Shown here: positions 5,573 through 53,255 of the stretch, piece after piece
How the letters are laid out: the number at the start of each line of letters is the position of its first letter
Position numbering within the stretch: position 1 is the stretch's first letter
Assembly: GCA_963665325.3 (NCBI GenBank)
Contig: CAXXWS020000002.1
Span: 32,001 to 96,000, forward strand
From: Alphaproteobacteria bacterium
GTDB lineage: Bacteria; Pseudomonadota; Alphaproteobacteria; Bin95
Direction: 5' to 3'
DNA: 64,000 nt
Made by a program: the position numbers and the translations under genes
The notes under the pieces: model-generated
Databases searched by the model: none
Seen by the model: the letters and a program-made list of their open reading frames with translations, nothing else
Told to the model about the DNA's origin: nothing

Positions 5573-5722
5573 CCGGGGAGGACGATGTTGCATTTCGCGG
5601 TCGCGGGGCCGCACCCTTACCCTCGTTTCGTGGGAGACCATGAACGCGTCGGCAATGCTACAAATGCCGGACGGGCGAACGGATCGTACCGGGCGCCTGC
5701 AACCGGAAAGGAGAGGCCGGAC

Positions 5723-6763
5723 GTGTTTACCGACCGCATAGAGGAACGCTGGATCGCCGCGTTCGACACCGTCTTCGGCCTGTGCAAGGTCGAGAAGGGC
5801 GAGGAAGTCGCGATCCTTTCGGAAACCCAGTCGCGGCGGCTCAATGTCGAACTGGCCGAACTCGCGCTGCTCCGGCGCGGCGCGCGGCCGTTCCATGTCA
5901 CGGTCGTTTCCCCGCCGCAGACCGCCCCCGTGCCGGTGCGCTCGACCGGCTCGTCGGCCGCTCTGCAGGGGCTGGGCCCGGCGATCAGGGCGCTTGCCGC
6001 CAGTTCGCTCGTCGTCGATGTGACGGTGGAGGGGATGCTCCATGCGCCGGAGCTTCCTGAAATCATCTCGGAGGGCGCGCGGCTCCTGATGGTCAGCAAC
6101 GAGCACCCGGATGCCCTGGAACGCCTGTTGCCCGACCCGGCGCTCACCGAGCGCGTCAAGGCGGCGGTCAAGCAGGTTCGGGCGGCGAAGGAGATGCGCG
6201 TGACCTCCGCCGCCGGCTCCGACCTCACCGTCGCGCTGGAGGGCGCGCCGAGCGCCGGAGTCTGGGGCTATTGCGACCGGCCGAGGACGGTCGCCCACTG
6301 GCCGGGCGGCATCGTCGTCGCTTTTCCTCCCGCCGGCTCCGTCCAGGGCCGGCTGGTGCTCGATACAGGCGACGTCAACCTGACCTTCAAGCGTTACCTG
6401 GAAGCACCAGTGGCGCTCACCATCGAGGACGACTACGTCACCGCCATCGAGGGCGAGGGCACCGATGCCGAGCTTTTCCGGCGCTACTGGGCTGCCTGGG
6501 ACGACCGTAACGCCTACGCCGCCTCGCATGTCGGATGGGGGCTGAACGAGGCGGCCCGCTACGAGGCGCTCGCCATGTATGACCAACGGGACTTCAACGG
6601 CACCGAAATCCGCGCGTTTGCCGGAAATTTCCTCTACTCGACCGGCGCCAACGAGTTCGCCAACCGCCACACGCTGGGTCATTTCGACCTGCCGATGCGG
6701 AACTGCACGGTGAGTCTCGACGGGGTGAACGTCGTCGAGGCCGGCCGGCTGGTCGACGCCTGA
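5723..6763 (+). CDS. NicX-like (2,5-dihydroxypyridine dioxygenase / M29 aminopeptidase fold) protein
   Basis: SHVGWGLN, RAFAGNFLYSTGANE, HFDLPMRNCTV motifs resemble NicX; GTG start at 5723 after AAGGAGAGG preferred over 5585. Confidence 0.75.
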   Translation: MFTDRIEERWIAAFDTVFGLCKVEKGEEVAILSETQSRRLNVELAELALLRRGARPFHVTVVSPPQTAPVPVRSTGSSAALQGLGPAIRALAASSLVVDVTVEGMLHAPELPEIISEGARLLMVSNEHPDALERLLPDPALTERVKAAVKQVRAAKEMRVTSAAGSDLTVALEGAPSAGVWGYCDRPRTVAHWPGGIVVAFPPAGSVQGRLVLDTGDVNLTFKRYLEAPVALTIEDDYVTAIEGEGTDAELFRRYWAAWDDRNAYAASHVGWGLNEAARYEALAMYDQRDFNGTEIRAFAGNFLYSTGANEFANRHTLGHFDLPMRNCTVSLDGVNVVEAGRLVDA

Positions 6764-25153: not shown

Positions 25154-25310
25154 CAAAACTGACAGTCAGACTAAGTTGATGAAATTATATGCAGTTTATT
25201 GTCGACGCCGGCGGTCCCGCCCCCGAACCCTCAGGCCATTGCGCTCTGCCTGCGCGGGGATGACGAAAGGGGGCCGGGGCGACAAAAAAGGGCGGCGAGA
25301 GGCATTTGCG

Positions 25311-25800
25311 GACCAAGAAAAATTCCTAAAAATTCCTATTTTGTTTCAAAATGGGCTTGACCCTGGAAAAAGTGTGCTACACTGTCACCGAGGGAAGTGG
25401 CGTCCGGGGCCGTTTCCCTCGGATCCGAAAAAGACACCCGCAAAACCGACGGGAGACGTGCGCCCTGCGCCAGCCTCGCGCGCGGGCGCAATCAGGCGCG
25501 CGAAACGCGCCGGCGCTAGCGGGCGCGCCCGCCCGCGCGCGAAACGCGCGAAAAGGGGCGCTGGCCGCCGCCTCGATTCCGCTCGAAAGGAGACCCGATG
25601 ACTGCAACCGACCCCCGCCCCGAACCGCGATCCGGGGTTGCTCCGAGAACCGAGGCTGGGCCCCGGCTCGGAGGCCGGGGCGACGGTTGGGGGACATGCC
25701 CCGTCCGCATGCGGAACATGACATCTCGTGACACATGGCAGGGTGGACCCCTGACGCCGCATGACGAAACATGACACTTCATGACACTTGCGGGGATATC
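25311..25800 (+). repeat. Dispersed element copy A (promoter-hairpin-core-short ORF-CATGACA array)
   Basis: Shares AAACCGACGGGAGACGTGCGCCC (25443-25465) with 33346-33368 and GCGCAATCAGGCGCGCGAAnCGCGCCGGCGC (25486-25516) with 33402-33432 and revcomp 52075-52105; heptamers at 25750/25760/25770/25780; boundaries approximate. Confidence 0.85.
25598..25774 (+). CDS. Putative 58-aa ORF inside element copy A (may be a relic)
   Basis: GAAAGGAG RBS then ATG; ends ...HDET* in the CATGACA array, like the TerS-like ORF of copy C (...HDRT*). Confidence 0.3.
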   Translation: MTATDPRPEPRSGVAPRTEAGPRLGGRGDGWGTCPVRMRNMTSRDTWQGGPLTPHDET

Positions 25801-33000: not shown

Positions 33001-33212
33001 GTCACGGGGTCGGCGCGAGGCTGTTCCAGTTGAAATCCTTGAACAGCGGCAGGGCTTCCGGATCGATATGGAAGCTCCGGTATTTGGGGCCCATGGTGCC
33101 GATGCTGGGTTCGATTGCCCCCGTCCTCCCGGAAGGCGTCGCCCGCGCCAGTATGGCCGAAACCGGTTGCTGTGGCGAACGGGGACATCCGACCTGCGCC
33201 CCAGGATTGCGA

Positions 33213-33660
33213 TTTGTTCATAAAATAAGAAAATTTACAGAAACAACTTGACTCCCGGAAGGTTCGGCCCTAGATGGGGCGGGAGGAAGGAAGCGGCATC
33301 CGGAGGCCGTTTCGTTTGGCGCCGGCGCGAAGAAAGACCCCCGAGAAACCGACGGGAGACGTGCGCCCCGCGTTTGTCTTGCCTTGCGCGCGGGGGCACA
33401 GGCGCAATCAGGCGCGCGAACCGCGCCGGCGCCAACGCGCCGGCCCGCGCGCACGCGATACGCGCGAAACAGGGTCCCGCCGCAAGGGGAGACGGGCGGC
33501 GGGGAAATAGAACAAAACAGGATTTTCAGGAGGGGCCAATGCCGAAGACAGGGACGAGAACGAACCGGACGGAATACCCCGAGCCCCTGCCCGAAAGGAC
33601 TGGACGACATGCGCCCTGCGTATGCGGATCATGACAAAACATGACACTCCCGGGGTGTTC
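33213..33660 (+). repeat. Dispersed element copy B
   Basis: TTGACT at 33248, hairpin GAAGCGGC/GCCGTTTC, both core blocks, CGCGATACGCGCGAAACAGGGTC shared with copy C, AGGAGG-ATG at 33539, CATGACA at 33630 and 33640. Confidence 0.85.
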
Positions 33661-33705: not shown

Positions 33706-34251
33706 TCACCCCCGCCCCGCCTGCCTCCGCCGCCAATGGCGCGGGTCAAAGGCGACCTTGTGGCCCCACAGGCCGCGCCGTTCCCGCCGGGCTTCGCGTT
33801 CGACGTCCTTGTAACGGTCTCCATAGGCGGCGATGGCGTGGCCGTTGCGGACCAGCCAGGCGCCCACATCCTTGTCGTCGCAGGTGACGCAGCCCAACAC
33901 GCGGCCAAACCGGTCGATGCCCTCCACGGTCACTTCGACATGCCGACCGCCCACCGCCCGGATGAGCGCGCGCTTGACGCGCTTGCCATGCTTGAACCAG
34001 GTGCCGTCGCGGCGCTTGGCCCACTGGTCCAGTTCCGGTGCATCGAGGCCGGCGAAACGGACCCGATAGCCGGAGACCCGCAGACCGTCACCGTCCGTCA
34101 CCCATGCCTTGCCGGCAATGACGCTGCCGGCTTCCGGCGTCGGCAGGCGCCGGCCGCCTTGCGCGTGGCGCCGGCGGGGCGCCCACCGCCGAGGCCGCTT
34201 CCTGAGAAGCAGGAAGGCGGCTGCGAGGACAAGGACCGCAACGAATTCCAT
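33706..34251 (-). CDS. Thermonuclease (SNase-like) family protein with N-terminal membrane anchor
   Basis: VTDGDGL, RFAGLDAPE, DRFGRVLG, LVRNGHA, EARRERRGLW. Confidence 0.92.
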   Translation of the reverse strand: MEFVAVLVLAAAFLLLRKRPRRWAPRRRHAQGGRRLPTPEAGSVIAGKAWVTDGDGLRVSGYRVRFAGLDAPELDQWAKRRDGTWFKHGKRVKRALIRAVGGRHVEVTVEGIDRFGRVLGCVTCDDKDVGAWLVRNGHAIAAYGDRYKDVEREARRERRGLWGHKVAFDPRHWRRRQAGRG

Positions 34252-34321: not shown

Positions 34322-34508
34322 AAGCTTGGCGGGGGAGAATGCTTGGTAAGATGGGAATGGAGGAAAGGCGGCTTCCCGGAGCCGCCTTTTCGAATTCGGA
34401 AGGCGGGGGCGAGAGGGATATTCCCGAAAGGAACAGGAAACATGCGCCCGGCGCAGGGAGCCTCATGACATCGCATGACATTTCATGACACATCGCTGGA
34501 GTGGGCCC
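34322..34508 (+). repeat. Dispersed element copy D (minimal: promoter, hairpin, RBS, CATGACA x3)
   Basis: TTGGCG-N15-TAAGAT, hairpin GAAAGGCGGC/GCCGCCTTTTC, CATGACA at 34464/34474/34484; 34484-34508 matches revcomp 50926-50950 at 24/25. Confidence 0.75.
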
Positions 34509-34608
34509 TTTGGGACCGTCAGGCGGCGGCCCGGTTTGCGTGTCCGGAGGAAGCGGCTATACCTCTGGGCGGCCCGGAACGGGCGGCCGAGAGGCGGTAT
34601 CGAAAGCG

Positions 34609-35657
34609 ATGACGAAAGACAGCACTGCGGCGCTGGAGGCGGCGGCGGGGGAACGCATCCTCGTTCTAGACGGCGCGATGGGGACCATGATCCAGAAGCT
34701 CAGCCTGGACGAGGCCGACTTCCGCGGCGCTCGCTTCGCCGACTGGGACCGGGACCTCAAGGGCAATAACGATTTGCTGAATCTGACGCTGCCGGACGCT
34801 GTGGGCGATATCCACAACGACTTCCTGGACGCCGGCGCAGACATCCTCGAGACCAACAGCTTCAACGCCACCCGGATCGCGCTGGCCGACTACGGCATGG
34901 AAGCTTTCGCCCGCGAGATCAACGAGACTGCGGCCCGAATCGCCCGCACCGTCGTGGATCGCCGCCGGGACGGCCGGCCGCGCTGGGTTGCTGGCGCCAT
35001 CGGGCCGACCAACCGCACCGCCTCGATTTCCCCCGATGTCGAGGACCCGGCGGCGCGCAATGTCGATTTCGACACGCTCGGCGCCGCCTACCGGGAGGCC
35101 GCCGAAGGCCTGATCGACGGCGGGGCGGACCTGCTGATCGTCGAGACGGTGTTCGACACGCTCAACGCCAAGGCGGCGCTCCACGCCATCGAGGAAGTGT
35201 TCGAGGCGCGCAGCCTCCGTCTGCCGGTCATCGTGTCCGGCACGGTGGTGGACCTGTCCGGACGCACGCTGTCCGGCCAGACGCCGGAGGCCTTCTGGTA
35301 TTCGGTGCGCCATGCCGCGCCCTTCGCGGTCGGGCTCAATTGCGCGCTCGGGGCGGAGCAGATGCGCGGCTTCCTCGCCGATATGGCGCGCTCGGCGGAT
35401 ACGCTGATTTCCGCTTATCCCAATGCCGGCCTGCCCAACGCCTTCGGTGGCTATGACGAGACGCCGGAAACGACAGCGTCCCATCTGGGCGCCTGGGCGC
35501 GGGACGGGCTGGTAAACCTTGTCGGCGGTTGCTGCGGCACCACGCCCGCCCATATCGAAGCCGTTGCGGAGGCGGTGGCGGGCGTGGCCCCGCGCAAGCC
35601 GCCCCGATTGGAGCGGCGCATGCGGCTCGCCGGGCTCGAACCCTTCGTCGCCGCCGC

Positions 35658-35661
<4 letters not shown>
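34609..35661 (+). CDS. metH: Methionine synthase, homocysteine-binding N-terminal module (split MetH part 1)
   Basis: [41 protein letters not shown]. Confidence 0.95.
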
Positions 35662-38296
<2,635 letters not shown>

Positions 38297-38312
<16 letters not shown>

Positions 38313-41895: not shown

Positions 41896-42680
41896 GCGCA
41901 CGGATCGGGACCGTTCTGCTGCTCGGTTGGCTGTTGGCCGTGTTCGTCTTCATCTTCGCGCCGATCGTTGCGTCGGTCGTCTTCTCGTTCAACTCGGACC
42001 GGTTCCCCACGATCCCGCTGGGCTCGTTCACAACCCATTGGTACGACACGATCTTCGCCGACGCCGAGATCGGCGAGGCGGCCCGCAACTCCATCGTCGT
42101 CTCACTGTCTACATCCGTTATCGCGACGGTGCTGGGCTTCGCGACCGCCTACACCGACTACCGCTACAACTTCCGTCTCAAGGGGCCGTATCTGGCGCTG
42201 ATCCTGCTGCCGCCGACGATCCCGCTGATCATCATGGCGCTTGCCATGCTGGCCTGGCTGTCCTGGATCGGGGCGTCGGGCCAGCTCTGGTCGGTCGTCG
42301 TCGCCCATTCCGTGCTGACGGCGCCCTTCGCCATGGCGATTATCCGCCTGCGCCTGAACCAGATTGACCCGAACCTGGAGGCAGCGGCCTGGAACCTGGG
42401 CTCCTCCGAGTGGAGGGCGCTCCGGTCGATCATCCTGCCCTTCTGCCGGCCCGCCATCATCTCCGCCGCTTGCCTGACCGCCGCCGTTTCCTTCGACGAG
42501 TTCGCGGTGGCCTGGTTCGTAAGCGGCCTGAACAAGACAGTGCCGGTGATCGTCCTGGAGATCGTTCAGGGCAACATCGACCCGCAGGTGAACGCCATCG
42601 GATCGCTGGTGTTCCTGACATCGATCACGCTGGTGGTCCTGGCGCAGGTCTTCTTCATCGCGCGGGTCGGCCGCGCATGA
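41892..42680 (+). CDS. PotC-like ABC permease
   Basis: FSFN, LEAAAWNLG, SFDEF, PQVNAIG. Confidence 0.92.
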   Translation: MSARIGTVLLLGWLLAVFVFIFAPIVASVVFSFNSDRFPTIPLGSFTTHWYDTIFADAEIGEAARNSIVVSLSTSVIATVLGFATAYTDYRYNFRLKGPYLALILLPPTIPLIIMALAMLAWLSWIGASGQLWSVVVAHSVLTAPFAMAIIRLRLNQIDPNLEAAAWNLGSSEWRALRSIILPFCRPAIISAACLTAAVSFDEFAVAWFVSGLNKTVPVIVLEIVQGNIDPQVNAIGSLVFLTSITLVVLAQVFFIARVGRA

Positions 42681-43732
42681 CCGCTCCGCTCGTCATCCTC
42701 TCGGGTGTGGTCAAACGGTTCGGGGACTTCACGGCCGTGCACCGCCTGGACCTGGAAATAGCAGCGGGCGAATTCATCGCGATCATGGGCCCGTCCGGCT
42801 GCGGCAAGACGACGACGCTTCGGATGATCGCCGGGCTGGAAGCGCCGAGCGAGGGCGAGATTCGCATCGGCGGACGGCTGATGAACGATGTGCCGGTCCA
42901 CGAGCGCGACACGCCCATGGTCTGGCAGTCGCTGGCCCTGTTCCCTTTCCTGAACGCCCGGGAGAATGTCGAGTTCGGGCTGAGAATGCGCAGGATCGAC
43001 GCCGCCGAGCGGCGCAGGCGTGCGCTCGACTGGCTGGAACGGCTGGAGATCGGCGAGTTCGCCGAGCGCAATATCGACACGCTGTCGGGCGGGCAGCGCC
43101 AGCGCGTGGCCCTGGCGCGCTCGCTGGTGACGGAGCCGCAAATCCTGTTGCTGGACGAACCCTTGTCGGCGTTGGACGCCCACCTGGTCATTCGCATGCA
43201 GGGCGTGCTGACGCGCTTGCAGCGCGAACTCGGCATCACCTTTGTGTACGTCACACACTCGCAATCCGAGGCCTTCGCCATGGCCGACCGGATCGTGATC
43301 ATGTCCGAGGGCCGTATCGTCCAGGTAGGCCAACCGCGCGAGATCTACCGGGCGCCCGAGAACCGCTTCGTGGCCGAGTTCGTGGGCCGCAACAATATCC
43401 TGGCCGGAACCAGCCGCGGCGACGCGATCGAAACGCCGCTCGGCATCTTTCCCGCTGCCGGCCTGCCCGCGACAGGCAACCCTGCCACCCTGGTTGTGGC
43501 CGCCGACCTGGTCCGGATCGGCCGGACGCCGTCTGAAGGCGCCATCCCATGCTCTCTGATTTCCGAGGAGTTTGTAGGTGCGACGGTTACCCTGTTCCTC
43601 GAGGCAGCGGACGGGACGGAACTGAAGGTCCAGCTGCCGGAACGCGCGCTGGGAGATCTGGACCCGCATGCCGGCGGCCAATTCCATCTCAGTTGGCCGG
43701 CCGATGCCGGGCACGTCCTGGCCGAGAGCTGA
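42677..43732 (+). CDS. PotA-like ABC ATP-binding protein
   Basis: GPSGCGKTT, LSGGQRQRVALAR, LLDEPLSALD, C-terminal TOBE. Confidence 0.95.
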   Translation: MTAPLVILSGVVKRFGDFTAVHRLDLEIAAGEFIAIMGPSGCGKTTTLRMIAGLEAPSEGEIRIGGRLMNDVPVHERDTPMVWQSLALFPFLNARENVEFGLRMRRIDAAERRRRALDWLERLEIGEFAERNIDTLSGGQRQRVALARSLVTEPQILLLDEPLSALDAHLVIRMQGVLTRLQRELGITFVYVTHSQSEAFAMADRIVIMSEGRIVQVGQPREIYRAPENRFVAEFVGRNNILAGTSRGDAIETPLGIFPAAGLPATGNPATLVVAADLVRIGRTPSEGAIPCSLISEEFVGATVTLFLEAADGTELKVQLPERALGDLDPHAGGQFHLSWPADAGHVLAES

Positions 43733-43744
43733 CCGGAGGCGCAG

Positions 43745-44626
43745 ATGATCCGGAACCCGATTCCCTGGCCGAACGGCGCAAGATGCGCGGTTGCAATCAC
43801 CTTCGACATGGACGCCGACAGCCTGATCCACATCGCGCGGCCGGAGGACGGGTTCGACCGGCTGTACCCCGTCTCGATGGGCCGCTACGGACCGACGGTC
43901 GCGATCCCCCGCATCCTCGCGACCTATCGGCGGCTGGGGATCAGGCAGAGCTTCTTCATTCCCGGCTGGTGTCTGGAGACGTACCCCGGCGCAGTCGAGG
44001 CGATCCTGAGCGACGGGCACGAGATCGGGCACCACGGCTGGATCCACGAGGATCCGGTGACGACGCGCGGGCCTTCCCAGGCGGAAGCGTTCGAGAAGGC
44101 CCTGGACGCCCACCGCCGGACCTGCGGCGTCCTCCCGCGCGGCTACCGCGCGCCGGTCTATAACGTCACGCAGCAGGTCATCGACCTGATGGTCCGGCAC
44201 GGGCTGCGCTATGACAGCTCGCTCATGGCGGACGACATCCCCTACCGGCTGACGACCGCCGAGGGTGCGCTCTGGGAGATGCCGGTCCACTGGGGCACCG
44301 ACGACTGGCCGCCCTTCGCCCACTACGATGAGATCGGTTACATGATGCCGGTGCGCGGGCCGTCCGCGGGTCTGGCCGGTTTCTGGGAGGAGTTCGAGGC
44401 GCAGTACGAGGCCGGCGGCTTCTTCATGCCCATCCTCCACCCGTTCCTGACCGGCCGGCTGGCTCGCTGGCGATTGGTCGAGCGCTGGCTGGAGGAGATC
44501 ATGGCGAGCCGGAAGGTCTGGGTCGCCCGGCTGGAGGATATTGCCGACCACCTGGACGCCCTTTCCGCCCAGGGGCATGACATCCGCACCGAACGGCTCC
44601 CCTATTATCGAGGACCGCAGACATGA
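43745..44626 (+). CDS. Polysaccharide deacetylase family protein (PuuE/HP0310-like)
   Basis: WPNGARCAVAITFDMD, GHEIGHHGWIHE, GYRAP, YDSSLM, DDWP, LHP. Confidence 0.9.
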   Translation: MIRNPIPWPNGARCAVAITFDMDADSLIHIARPEDGFDRLYPVSMGRYGPTVAIPRILATYRRLGIRQSFFIPGWCLETYPGAVEAILSDGHEIGHHGWIHEDPVTTRGPSQAEAFEKALDAHRRTCGVLPRGYRAPVYNVTQQVIDLMVRHGLRYDSSLMADDIPYRLTTAEGALWEMPVHWGTDDWPPFAHYDEIGYMMPVRGPSAGLAGFWEEFEAQYEAGGFFMPILHPFLTGRLARWRLVERWLEEIMASRKVWVARLEDIADHLDALSAQGHDIRTERLPYYRGPQT

Positions 44627-50884: not shown

Positions 50885-50955
50885 CGGCGCCGGGTTCCGA
50901 GAGACGCGATGCAGCGCGTCCGCCGGGGCCCACTCCAGCGAAGTGTCATGAGTTG

Positions 50956-51936
50956 TCATGTTCTGTCATGGTCCGGCGCGGAACCGGCGCCCTCGAGCCC
51001 GGTCTTCCTTCCCCTCTTCTTCTTTTTCTTTTTCGTCGCCGGTCCACTCCAGTCACCGTCTTCGCCGCCGCCCCGTTCTTCCCGTTCGAGGCGGTTCCGC
51101 GTTCGCTGCCCGACCTCCTCCGGGGCCCAGGGGGCGTAGATTTCGTCGTAGCCGTTGCGGCGCTGGTAGAGCCAGTCATGTTCGGCGCCGTCGGCCCTGT
51201 CACCGTCGACCCTGTCCTCGTCGCCGGACCCTTCGCCACCTGCCCACGGGCAATCCTCGTAGGTCTCCTCGGGCGGGTCGTCGGCGGGGGGCCGGTCTTC
51301 GGGCGAAGCCGGTTCGGGGGCCTCGAAGCAGACGGGCAGTCGCGTCCGCTCCTCGACGGCCCCGGCGAGCCTGCGGGCAACCTCCTCATGCGCGGCCCCG
51401 TCGAAGCCCTCCTGCGCCTCAAGCTCCTCCCGGCTGGCATGGTGCCGCGCGAGCGCGCATCGGGCGCGGTCGAGGCCGCTGCGCACGGCCTCGACGAGCG
51501 GCCCGGGTTCGGCTCCGGCCTCCTCAGCCTCGCCCGCTTCGATCTCGCCGAACTCGTCCTCGTGCGGCAGCGGCCAGAGCCCCGCACGGCGCGCGGTCGT
51601 CGGCCCCGTAAGCCCCGCGATCTCGGCCTGGAAGCGCAGCACCCGGAGCATCGTGTAGGCCGAGCCGCTGGCGACGGCCGCGTCCCACGCCTGCTCCAGC
51701 CGGGCAAGCAGGATGCGGGCCTCGTCCCGCTCGGTGCGCTTCCATGACAGGCGGATGCGCCGCAGCCGTTCGACAATGTAGGGTCGTTCCAATAAGGCGC
51801 AGCCGGTCTGGCGGGCGGAGCGCCCGGAGTAGCCGGCCTGCCTTGCAGCGTCTGCGGCATTGCCGGAGACGGCATAGTGGCGGCAGAAGGCTTCCTGGCG
51901 TGTGGACAGCGCGACGGCGGGTTGGATGATGGGCAT
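50956..51936 (-). CDS. Terminase small subunit-like HTH protein with long low-complexity tail
   Basis: N-terminus LSTRQEAFCRHYAVSGNAADAARQAGYS..SARQTGCALLERPYI fits Terminase_2 (PF03592) pattern; AAGGAG RBS. Confidence 0.75.
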   Translation of the reverse strand: MPIIQPAVALSTRQEAFCRHYAVSGNAADAARQAGYSGRSARQTGCALLERPYIVERLRRIRLSWKRTERDEARILLARLEQAWDAAVASGSAYTMLRVLRFQAEIAGLTGPTTARRAGLWPLPHEDEFGEIEAGEAEEAGAEPGPLVEAVRSGLDRARCALARHHASREELEAQEGFDGAAHEEVARRLAGAVEERTRLPVCFEAPEPASPEDRPPADDPPEETYEDCPWAGGEGSGDEDRVDGDRADGAEHDWLYQRRNGYDEIYAPWAPEEVGQRTRNRLEREERGGGEDGDWSGPATKKKKKKRGRKTGLEGAGSAPDHDRT

Positions 51937-51953
51937 GGGGCGGAGCTCCTTTC

Positions 51954-51968
51954 GTTCCGCTAACGTTC
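51954..51968. promoter_or_regulatory. Alphaproteobacterial LexA (SOS) box
   Basis: GTTC-CGCTAAC-GTTC, exact GTTC-N7-GTTC, immediately upstream of the RBS of the TerS-like gene. Confidence 0.7.
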
Positions 51969-52282
51969 TTTCGAGTCGAACCTGATTTCAGGGCCGACAC
52001 ACAGCCATCACCCCGACCCGTCTCCGGAGCGACCCTGTTTCGCGCGTATCGCGGGCGGGCGCGGGCGCGTGTTGGCGCCGGCGCGGTTCGCGCGCCTGAT
52101 TGCGCGCGCGAGCCGGAGGACGCACTTCGCCTGTTTGTTGAATCGGGGTTGTTCTGCGCCGGGCCGGCGCGAAGGGAAGCGGACCATGGATACCGCTTCC
52201 CTCGGAGCCATTGTAGCATAATTTCCTGAGGGTCAAGCCTGTTTCGGAATTAATTCAAAACAAGAGAACAAGAAGTCATGCC

Positions 52283-52560
52283 GGCGGCTTCACCGCCGGG
52301 CGCGTCATCGGCAAGTGGATCGGCTTCTACAACACCATCAGGCCGCACTCGGCGCTGGGCGGACGGACGCCGGCCGAGGCCTACTGGGACGGCCCGCCTG
52401 TGGATATGATGGACGAGCCGCTTCGCGCCTTGACCACATCCCCACAGGCGCAGCAGCAGCAACAGGAAGATCGACTCAAGGGGATTCTGGCGGCCTGAAC
52501 TTCAACCGGGATACATCTTAACTCAGCCGTCAGGCTGTCCGACGAACCGAGGCCACCTCA
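52283..52560 (+). mobile_element. IS3-family remnant (3' end of OrfB and right end)
   Basis: Frame encodes GFTAGRVIGKWIGFYNTIRPHSALGGRTPAEAY (stop 52496-52498); terminus CTGTCCGACGAACCGAGGCCACCTCA ends in CA. Confidence 0.85.
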
Positions 52561-53116: not shown

Positions 53117-53186
53117 GTGCCGGGAAGGGAAACCCTTACAAACCTCCCTCATTCCGAGTAGCCCCGGACTTGTTCCCGGCATGACG
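53117..53186. repeat. Degenerate REP-like palindrome
   Basis: GTGCCGGGAA...CCCCGGACTTGTTCCCGGCATGAC between convergent genes, resembling alphaproteobacterial GTCAT...ATGAC REP elements; a related half-site CCTGCGCGGGGATGAC lies at about 25249-25264. Confidence 0.35.
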
Positions 53187-53255
53187 ACGAGAGGACGCGG
53201 CACGAAAGAGGCGCACACTTCCCGGTCAGGTCGGGAGGGCCCGGTTGCTTTCGGA

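What the first reader, a model, noticed from the sequence alone, without database searches (positions are those of the whole stretch)
25717..25790. CATGACA heptamers at exact 10-bp period: helically phased sites that also put TGA and ATG in all three frames
Seen: arrays at 25750/60/70/80 (plus 25717/27), 33630/40, 34464/74/84 and revcomp 50944/54/64. The 3-nt spacers vary while heptamer and period are kept. Because 10 mod 3 = 1, three units give a stop and an overlapping ATGA in every frame, and each RBS-led ORF of the four copies does terminate inside its array. Copies C and D continue with the same CGCTGGAGTGGGCCC tail. Inference: either iteron-like, same-face binding sites for an oligomeric HTH protein (such as the TerS-like ring, pac-like end), or a universal translation stop/restart cassette for variable cargo.
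Basis: partly seen in the sequence, partly recalled or inferred. Interest (0 to 1): 0.75.

Follow-up and report, generated by a model that had tools for sequence, protein, structure and literature searches.

The report
Scattered terminase-gene cassettes with phased repeats
These repeats are the tail end of a small DNA cassette copied dozens of times around the chromosomes of one group of uncultured bacteria; complete copies carry a lone phage DNA-packaging recognition gene, and the repeats are most likely docking sites that could let passing phages package the bacterium's own DNA.

Summary
The arrays are real: 6 exact 10-bp pairs against 0 in 100 simulations, though three listed units are degenerate. 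The window is an alphaproteobacterial chromosome, not a phage. Each array ends a dispersed cassette: AT-rich box, promoter with a 15-bp spacer, 5' hairpin, GC-rich leader, ORF, array. A capped GTDB scan gave 83 loci from 14 related genomes. All 66 leaders have an array downstream, at about 17 arrays per Mb. Full copies encode an SF6/SPP1-type small-terminase-like protein under purifying selection, or a second unknown family. No TerL, portal or capsid gene was found near 8 full copies, and there are no target duplications or inverted ends. Copies resemble each other within genomes. Stops in all three frames are used, but restart failed its test. The shared C/D tail is an IS3 end inserted at a fixed register beside the array. 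Best reading: phased binding sites for the orphan TerS, acting as pac-like sites with a borrowed TerL. Binding, packaging and the route to new sites are all unshown.

The parts
25310..25356 (+). Copy A: AT-rich upstream box (weak, 2-mismatch resemblance to an alphaproteobacterial LexA box); left edge approximate
25357..25383 (+). Copy A promoter-like site: -35 hexamer, 15-bp spacer, extended -10
25388..25567 (+). Copy A leader: 5' hairpin (about 25388-25421) and conserved GC-rich block
25598..25774 (+). Copy A ORF, 58 aa. Only its first 8 residues match the second cargo family (P0270), so it is read as an internally deleted derivative. Stops in the second array.
25717..25736 (+). Array A1, two units (second unit 6 of 7)
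25750..25789 (+). Array A2: degenerate units at 25750 (5 of 7) and 25760 (6 of 7), exact units at 25770 and 25780
33205..33538 (+). Copy B upstream box, degenerate promoter (-35 at 33248), hairpin and leader
33539..33634 (+). Copy B short ORF, 31 aa, stops in unit 1
33630..33649 (+). Array B, two exact units
34326..34463 (+). Copy C short leader: promoter-like site with 15-bp spacer (34326-34352), hairpin from 34363, ORF start at 34442 (8 aa)
34464..34493 (+). Array C, three exact units
34494..34515 (+). 3-bp target plus remnant left end of an IS3-family element (scar); right edge approximate
51937..52275 (-). Copy D upstream box, promoter (-35 at 52236, 15-bp spacer, -10 at 52215), hairpin (52203-52170), GC-rich leader and ribosome-binding site
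50956..51936 (-). Copy D full-length cargo gene, 326 aa: TerS-type HTH and helices (PF03592, residues 11-80), acidic middle, variable tail; stops in unit 2 of the array
50941..50970 (-). Array D, three exact units
50922..50940 (-). 3-bp target plus remnant IS3-family end (scar); outer edge approximate

Best explanation
The array is the 3' module of a dispersed cassette family (promoter, structured leader, cargo ORF, array). SHOWN: the anatomy; tens of copies per genome; full copies encode an orphan TerS-like protein under purifying selection; most copies are deletion derivatives that keep both ends; copies resemble each other within a genome over a tract from the promoter to the last heptamer. 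INFERRED: the heptamers, one helical turn apart, are binding sites for adjacent HTH domains of the cassette's own TerS-like ring, so each array is a pac-like recognition site. INFERRED, weaker: when a helper phage or GTA supplies TerL and capsids, this TerS starts headful packaging at the dispersed arrays, as SaPI TerS does at pseudo-pac sites. That would transduce chromosome segments, cassettes included, and may compete with the phage's own packaging. The three-frame stop is a by-product that insulates frameshifted tails. How copies reach new sites is not explained; ectopic recombination between copies is the likeliest cause of their homogenisation.
For: Linkage: 66 of 66 leaders have an array downstream; 4 of 4 leaders away from the scan centre do, against 0.6% of random windows. 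TerS identity: PF03592 E 4.7e-12, phrog_51; the top four fold hits are SF6 TerS chains (E 0.01-0.07); PDB profile hits are to SF6 TerS. dN/dS is 0.04-0.31 over residues 8-110 in 14 of 15 pairs of six genes, the other pair being identical. 102 of 120 close homologues and several representatives from separate 50% clusters end in the array peptide. Offsets between neighbouring arrays cluster at 21, 32 and 33 bp (14 of 27; resultant 0.53-0.58 at period 10.5-11; copies not independent). Passages of PMC4737164 say adjacent TerS HTHs are about one DNA turn apart. Passages of PMC9006064 describe SOS-induced PICI TerS packaging host DNA at pac homologues with any compatible TerL. No TerL, portal or capsid hit among 90 genes around 8 full copies, so any packaging partner must act in trans. 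Nearest leader relative is in the same genome for 31 of 56 copies against 7 expected.
Against: No binding, cutting or packaging data exist. The closest solved relative, the SF6 DNA-binding domain, binds pac DNA without sequence preference and ignores the pac repeats (PMC4737164 passages). Array orientation shows no relation to GC skew (43 of 76, p 0.30; a noisy measure). No helper prophage or GTA was seen in the loci examined, and whole genomes were not available. The second cargo family has no detectable link to TerS (hhalign probability 0.5%; no fold match above background). A LexA-like box is limited to 13 of 52 promoters at one mismatch and none perfect (2.3 expected), mostly one subfamily. 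The model does not explain insertion at new sites. 22 of 80 arrays had no leader detected, though many of these are split by IS insertions or have short leaders.
Confidence: 0.4

Rival explanations
1. The arrays are regulatory or architectural sites. The TerS-like HTH, or a host or phage regulator, binds them to control transcription or organise the nucleoid, as Ltr activators bind three 7-nt repeats at the end of their own gene. No packaging is involved.
For: PMC3753634 passages: RinA, ArpU and LtrC bind 2-4 direct repeats (three 7-nt repeats for ArpU) just distal to their coding sequence. The cassette has a conserved, atypical promoter (15-bp spacer in 29 of 32) and a covarying 5' hairpin (1 of 500 shuffles), so it is built for regulated transcription. 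No packaging partner was found nearby.
Against: Downstream genes are unrelated housekeeping genes, 32 of 81 convergent. In Ltr systems the repeats lie upstream of the terS promoter; here they follow terS. The protein is TerS-like, not Ltr-like.
Confidence: 0.2
2. The array is a recombination end of a non-autonomous mobile element, read by an unidentified trans-acting transposase or recombinase, or a priming site for RNA-templated copying. The TerS-like protein is a passenger or a targeting factor.
For: Genome-specific expansions. Both ends are kept in deletion derivatives. Identity between two copies in one genome runs from the promoter to exactly the last heptamer, and in another pair is 97% in the transcribed part but 74% in the promoter. 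Different subfamilies sit at the same orthologous site (rank 29 of 55 and 11 of 55). IS3 and IS66 elements insert at fixed registers in arrays.
Against: No target-site duplications or inverted ends. No recombinase or reverse transcriptase travels with the cassette (one search found one IS110-like neighbour). Several close pairs share the promoter too, and orthologous controls also diverge upstream, so an RNA intermediate is not required. No clean empty site was found.
Confidence: 0.22
3. The array is primarily a universal translation stop and restart cassette for variable cargo.
For: ORFs end in all three units (14, 15, 9). Both cargo families use more than one frame.
Against: Restart test negative: 29 of 47 open against 27.5 in control frames; array ATG in frame in 35 of 47 against about 31 expected. 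The heptamer is conserved outside TGA (406 of 425 exact, partly by ascertainment) and spacers are position-specific. Two-unit arrays are common (29 of 145). Arrays also persist where no ORF reaches them (12 of 50 rows end elsewhere).
Confidence: 0.08
4. The arrays are neutral remains of a 5-bp microsatellite that hitchhike with decaying elements.
For: The unit is a degenerate dimer of a 5-mer, and pure 5-bp microsatellites account for 9 of the 19 non-alphaproteobacterial hits (8 flagged, one more by eye).
Against: Copy number stays at 2-5, spacers are polar and position-specific, and the link to the leader is complete even though the middle of the cassette diverges freely.
Confidence: 0.05

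Closest known systems
SaPI/PICI small terminase (operon I) acting at pseudo-pac sites
   Same: TerS without TerL, needing a helper phage; can package host DNA from chromosomal pac homologues; SOS-inducible in SaPIs (PMC9006064 passages).
   Different: No integrase, excisionase, replicon or divergent repressor pair; 0.3-1.3 kb rather than an island; tens of dispersed copies, each with its own conserved array; packaging untested.
SPP1/SF6 pac site and small terminase (G1P)
   Same: Same HTH family and fold; direct repeats near the terS gene; HTHs one turn apart.
   Different: pac spans the promoter and start of terS, whereas the array overlaps the stop codon; SF6 binding is sequence-independent; no terL follows; long acidic extension.
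Ltr (RinA/ArpU/LtrC) binding repeats of Gram-positive phage late promoters
   Same: Two to four short direct repeats at the end of a DNA-binding protein's gene, next to terS regulation.
   Different: Different protein family; there the repeats lie upstream of terS and activate it, here they lie downstream of a TerS-like gene.
REP/BIME repeats as IS targets (IS1397, ISKpn1)
   Same: Abundant intergenic repeats that IS3-family elements enter at a fixed position (PMC1525189 passages).
   Different: Direct, polar, non-palindromic repeats inside a promoter-bearing cassette; no RAYT-like gene seen beside the full copies.
MITEs and other non-autonomous IS derivatives
   Same: Full-length and internally deleted copies sharing both ends; expansions within genomes.
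   Different: No terminal inverted repeats, no target duplication, and the full-length gene is not a transposase.
Caulobacter GTA cluster promoter region (GafYZ/IHF)
   Same: A regulated promoter and long untranslated leader ahead of a packaging cluster in Alphaproteobacteria (PMC11150451 passages).
   Different: No structural cluster follows; no sequence comparison was made.

Membership tests
PICI/SaPI | Integrase, excisionase, replication module and divergent regulators in the element | tested here: not met
   The cassette holds one ORF; none of 90 genes around 8 full copies hit such PHROG families except one IS transposase; features from PMC6092414 passages.
PICI/SaPI | TerS homologue without TerL | tested here: met
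   (within about 6.5 kb of each copy; whole genomes not searched)
PICI/SaPI | Helper-phage-dependent packaging and transfer | not testable with these tools
   Needs virion sequencing or transduction assays.
Small terminase, SPP1/SF6 type (PF03592) | N-terminal HTH DNA-binding domain | tested here: met
   Pfam 47.2 bits against cut-off 26.1; rmsd 1.4 over 55 columns to 4zc3; pLDDT 87-94 in residues 11-60.
Small terminase, SPP1/SF6 type (PF03592) | Ring-forming oligomerisation helices | tested here: inconclusive
   Two helices at residues 69-106 with pLDDT 63-72; full-length SF6 TerS is the top fold hit at E 0.011; no complex prediction was obtained.
Small terminase, SPP1/SF6 type (PF03592) | Gene adjacent to terL in a packaging operon | tested here: not met
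Small terminase, SPP1/SF6 type (PF03592) | Binds pac and recruits TerL | not testable with these tools
   Biochemistry needed.
MITE / DDE-type IS derivative | Terminal inverted repeats and target-site duplication | tested here: not met
   Shared k-mers between flanks at or below shuffled expectation for 53 elements; ends are defined only approximately.
REP/BIME | Short imperfect palindromes | tested here: not met
   The arrays are polar direct repeats.
Known structured RNA (Rfam) | Match to a curated covariance model | tested here: not met
   0 matches at E up to 1 in the window; only 6S RNA, outside the cassettes, in four further loci.
LexA (SOS) regulon, Alphaproteobacteria | GTTC-N7-GTTC box at the promoter | tested here: inconclusive
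   13 of 52 promoters at one mismatch against 2.3 shuffled, none perfect, window copies A and D at two mismatches; motif from PMC8565304 passage.
Known anti-phage defence system | Match to a PADLOC model | tested here: not met
   No hit for either cargo protein; library dated 2023.

The most novel reading that the evidence does not exclude
A decentralised, host-domesticated packaging-initiation system. Stand-alone TerS genes and 60-90 cognate phased sites per chromosome turn any compatible phage or GTA into a genome-wide transducing agent, and may divert its motor. The same design, with lineage-specific 10-bp motifs co-evolving with the HTH, may recur at orphan TerS genes across bacteria.
Probability: 0.25. 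Interest if true: 0.9.

Novelty: categorically new. Interest (0 to 1): 0.72.

Why it matters
If the arrays are TerS sites, this is a natural collection of hundreds of variants of one packaging-recognition site with its cognate protein. That would make the open question of how HTH-ring small terminases pick pac DNA (sequence or shape) directly testable with phase and spacer mutants. It would also add a minimal kind of phage parasite, smaller than any PICI and spread through the chromosome, as a route of gene flow in uncultured bacteria. Even without the packaging model, this is a repeat family at about 17 copies per Mb that sits at synteny breaks and acts as a fixed-register landing site for two unrelated IS families; none of the ten literature searches found it described.

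Tried and rejected
Phage origin of the window: rejected, housekeeping genes throughout. DNA similarity of copy D to annotated plasmids and phages: only short chance-level hits; the protein hits phage terS genes over its N-terminus only. Replichore orientation: none. Translation restart: not supported; a first crude count of 28 of 53 came from shadow ORFs and long GC-rich open frames and was replaced by the controlled test. Target duplications and inverted ends: none. Clean empty sites: none; syntenic pairs showed the same copy, a different subfamily copy, another mobile element or a rearrangement. Whole-leader RNA structure: RNAalifold kept only one invariant 5-bp long-range helix with no covariation, and single-copy z-scores were -2.2, -2.05 and -0.45; only the 5' hairpin covaries, tested on 13 sequences of one register chosen from 20. 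The standard promoter scan finds nothing because it needs a 16-18 bp spacer; my first promoter regex failed for the same reason. Second cargo family: no NCBIfam, Pfam, PDB or plasmid hit, a weak phrog_31793 hit (E 5e-4 and 0.03), chance-level phage hits, and only generic helical-hairpin folds. My recollection that such helical hairpins resemble ORFs upstream of terL in alphaproteobacterial GTA-like clusters is a lead from memory, not tested; the 'shorter' search covered only 30-78 aa. A test for 10-bp-periodic coding at the C-termini of 66 distant TerS-like proteins was inconclusive: 10 against a shuffle mean of 6.75 (maximum 12) and 9 in inner windows. RNA-templated copying: suggested by two pairs, not general. 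No oligomer prediction and no cluster-member names were obtained. Metagenomic and uncultivated-virus contigs stayed unchecked, so whether free phages carry these arrays is open. Literature: ten searches listed no paper whose title or abstract start describes this element; the library lacks most subscription papers.

Full report
Observation. The heptamer occurs 21 times in the window against 6.6 expected, and six times as exact neighbours 10 bp apart against none in 100 Markov simulations. Coordinates are as reported, except that 25727 and 25760 match 6 of 7 and 25750 matches 5 of 7. The window is a 67% GC chromosome with carB, greA, glnK-amtB, a ubiH-like hydroxylase, metH, leuA, argD-argF and hsp33 (Pfam families; gene names are my reading of them). 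The arrays are all intergenic or overlap the stop of a cassette ORF.

Anatomy. Copies A, B and D share a leader of about 250 bp, and C has a short version. The order is: AT-rich box; -35 and extended -10 hexamers; a GC-rich hairpin right after the inferred start; a conserved GC-rich block; ribosome-binding site; ORF; array. The spacer is 15 bp in 29 of 32 cassette promoters matching a strict pattern, and in 1 of 20 matches outside detected cassettes. That is short for sigma-70 by general knowledge, and suggests an activator or reliance on the extended -10 (inference). The 5' hairpin pairs in 91% of cells with covariation reached by 1 of 500 shuffles, on 12 distinct sequences of one register; structure in the rest of the leader is not established. 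No Rfam family matches.

Cargo. Copy D encodes 326 aa with a TerS HTH. The model's confident part matches SF6 small terminase; the rest is acidic and poorly ordered. The search found 333 homologues among 8000 scored candidates, and several contig lengths recur among the 120 listed, which points to several copies per genome. Of those 120, 89 end in the frame that stops at unit 2, 13 in the frame that stops at unit 3, and 18 otherwise. dN/dS is 0.04-0.31 in the TerS part and near 1 for most tail comparisons between subfamilies. A second family of about 200 aa (P0270; 160 homologues; 61 of 120 ending in the array peptide) fills the same slot. It folds as a helical hairpin plus two beta-hairpin/helix repeats and has no identified relative. 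Copy A keeps its first 8 residues. Short proteins joining the TerS start to the array peptide are also in the databases.

Distribution. The other 19 are 5-bp microsatellites (9) or unrelated arrays with no leader hit; eleven loci, seven of them non-alphaproteobacterial, were inspected for nearby ORFs by eye only. All 66 leaders have an array downstream and 58 of 80 arrays have a detected leader. Away from the scan centres there are 11 array clusters in 648 kb, about 17 per Mb. Six of the fetched loci carry most or all of the TerS gene. None of 90 genes around 8 full cargo copies is TerL, portal or capsid.

Dynamics. The nearest leader relative lies in the same genome for 31 of 56 copies, against 7 expected. 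Two copies in one genome are near-identical from the -35 region to the last heptamer and diverge at once beyond it. Orthologous sites hold either the same copy (rank 1 in two pairs) or a different subfamily (ranks 11 and 29 of 55), and several cassettes sit where synteny breaks. There are no target duplications or inverted ends and no clean empty site was found. Ectopic recombination between copies explains homogenisation and replacement; first insertion at new sites is unexplained.

The shared tail. A full IS3-family element (integrase core and HTH transposase domains) in L071 begins with the tail sequence and is flanked by a 3-bp duplication. Of 17 such ends in 1.15 Mb, 14 lie beside an array, 12 of them exactly 13 nt from the start of the last heptamer with varying target triplets; the other 3 are far ends of such insertions. 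Nine of 11 IS66-type ends also lie in or at arrays. The loci were chosen for arrays, but the fixed register is not explained by that. IS3-family targeting of REP repeats is known (PMC1525189, passages).

Stop or binding site. ORFs end in unit 1, 2 or 3 in 14, 15 and 9 of 50 rows with an ORF call, two of them duplicates, so the three-frame stop is used. Restart is not: the next gene's frame is open in 29 of 47 against 27.5 for control frames, and 32 of 81 next genes are convergent. The conserved non-stop bases, the polar spacers and the 21/32/33-bp offsets between arrays fit a protein binding one face of the helix. PMC4737164 (passages) gives both support, HTHs one turn apart on the ring, and the main objection, that SF6 TerS binds pac without sequence preference.

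Mechanism and rivals. I put 0.4 on pac-like sites for the orphan TerS working with a borrowed TerL, by analogy with PICI TerS (PMC9006064, passages); 0.22 on a recombination end read by an unknown enzyme; 0.2 on regulatory or architectural sites, by analogy with Ltr repeats (PMC3753634, passages); 0.08 on stop/restart as the main role; 0.05 on neutral microsatellite. SOS control is possible for a subset only (motif from PMC8565304, passage).

Membership and novelty. It fails the tests for PICI (features from PMC6092414, passages), MITE and REP, and matches no Rfam or PADLOC model. It may work like SaPI TerS at pseudo-pac sites without being a PICI. PMC11150451 was read in passages for GTA promoter design only. 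Ten searches listed nothing describing this family; for papers not named above I saw only search listings, and no supplements were read. The anatomy is new and well supported; the function is a hypothesis.

Noticed in passing
window 52283-52498 (+): Truncated IS3-family integrase remnant (rve_3, E 2e-7) directly upstream of copy D, with a single CATGAC at the junction.
   Followed up: partly
window 33706-34251 (-): Staphylococcal-nuclease-family gene between copies B and C; convergent with B and divergent from C, so probably a neighbour rather than cargo. Weak PADLOC hit at E 0.001.
   Followed up: partly
window 34610-38312 (+): Methionine synthase is split into two genes (methyltransferase domain; pterin/B12/activation domains), just downstream of copy C.
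   Followed up: no
window 25318-25338: Perfect 10-bp tandem duplication in the AT-rich box upstream of copy A's promoter.
   Followed up: no
window about 25640-25695 and 53160-53190: REP-like palindromes, one inside copy A's ORF; similar ones with CATGAC-like ends are common inside and beside cassettes in the related loci. The REP label is my recall.
   Followed up: no
L003 17150-19200; also L067, L039, L012, L031, L048, L091: An IS66-type element inserts inside array units; in L003 it lies within what looks like a group II intron end (by eye) inside a cassette.
   Followed up: partly
L018 9800-10600 and L020 9800-10030: In two more distant genomes arrays follow a different leader whose promoter has a perfect GAAC-N7-GAAC box; it may belong to a divergent SOS gene.
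   Followed up: partly
L016, L056, L075, L080, about 50-100 bp upstream of the -35: A DnaA-box-like nonamer precedes four cassettes (label from recall).
   Followed up: no
L011, L028, L033 (Dyadobacter flavalbus): Longer 10-bp arrays of a related motif; in two loci they form inverted pairs between convergent genes. No leader hit, and no TerS-like ORF by eye.
   Followed up: partly
Proteins P0214, P0229, P0239: Distant TerS-like proteins whose C-termini can be encoded by perfect 10-bp-periodic DNA of other motifs; the set-wide test was inconclusive and the DNA was not seen.
   Followed up: partly
L002 10100-10660: A host-type gene (isochorismatase-like by eye) lies between a leader and its array, the one case of apparent gene capture.
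   Followed up: no
L009 216-295: The IS3 left end runs straight into the start codon of the ubiH-like gene, where the IS's own first gene would begin.
   Followed up: no
window 42569-44578 (-), 42164-42535 (-), 5585-6763 (+): Long ORFs with no Pfam match; the first two may be shadow frames.
   Followed up: no
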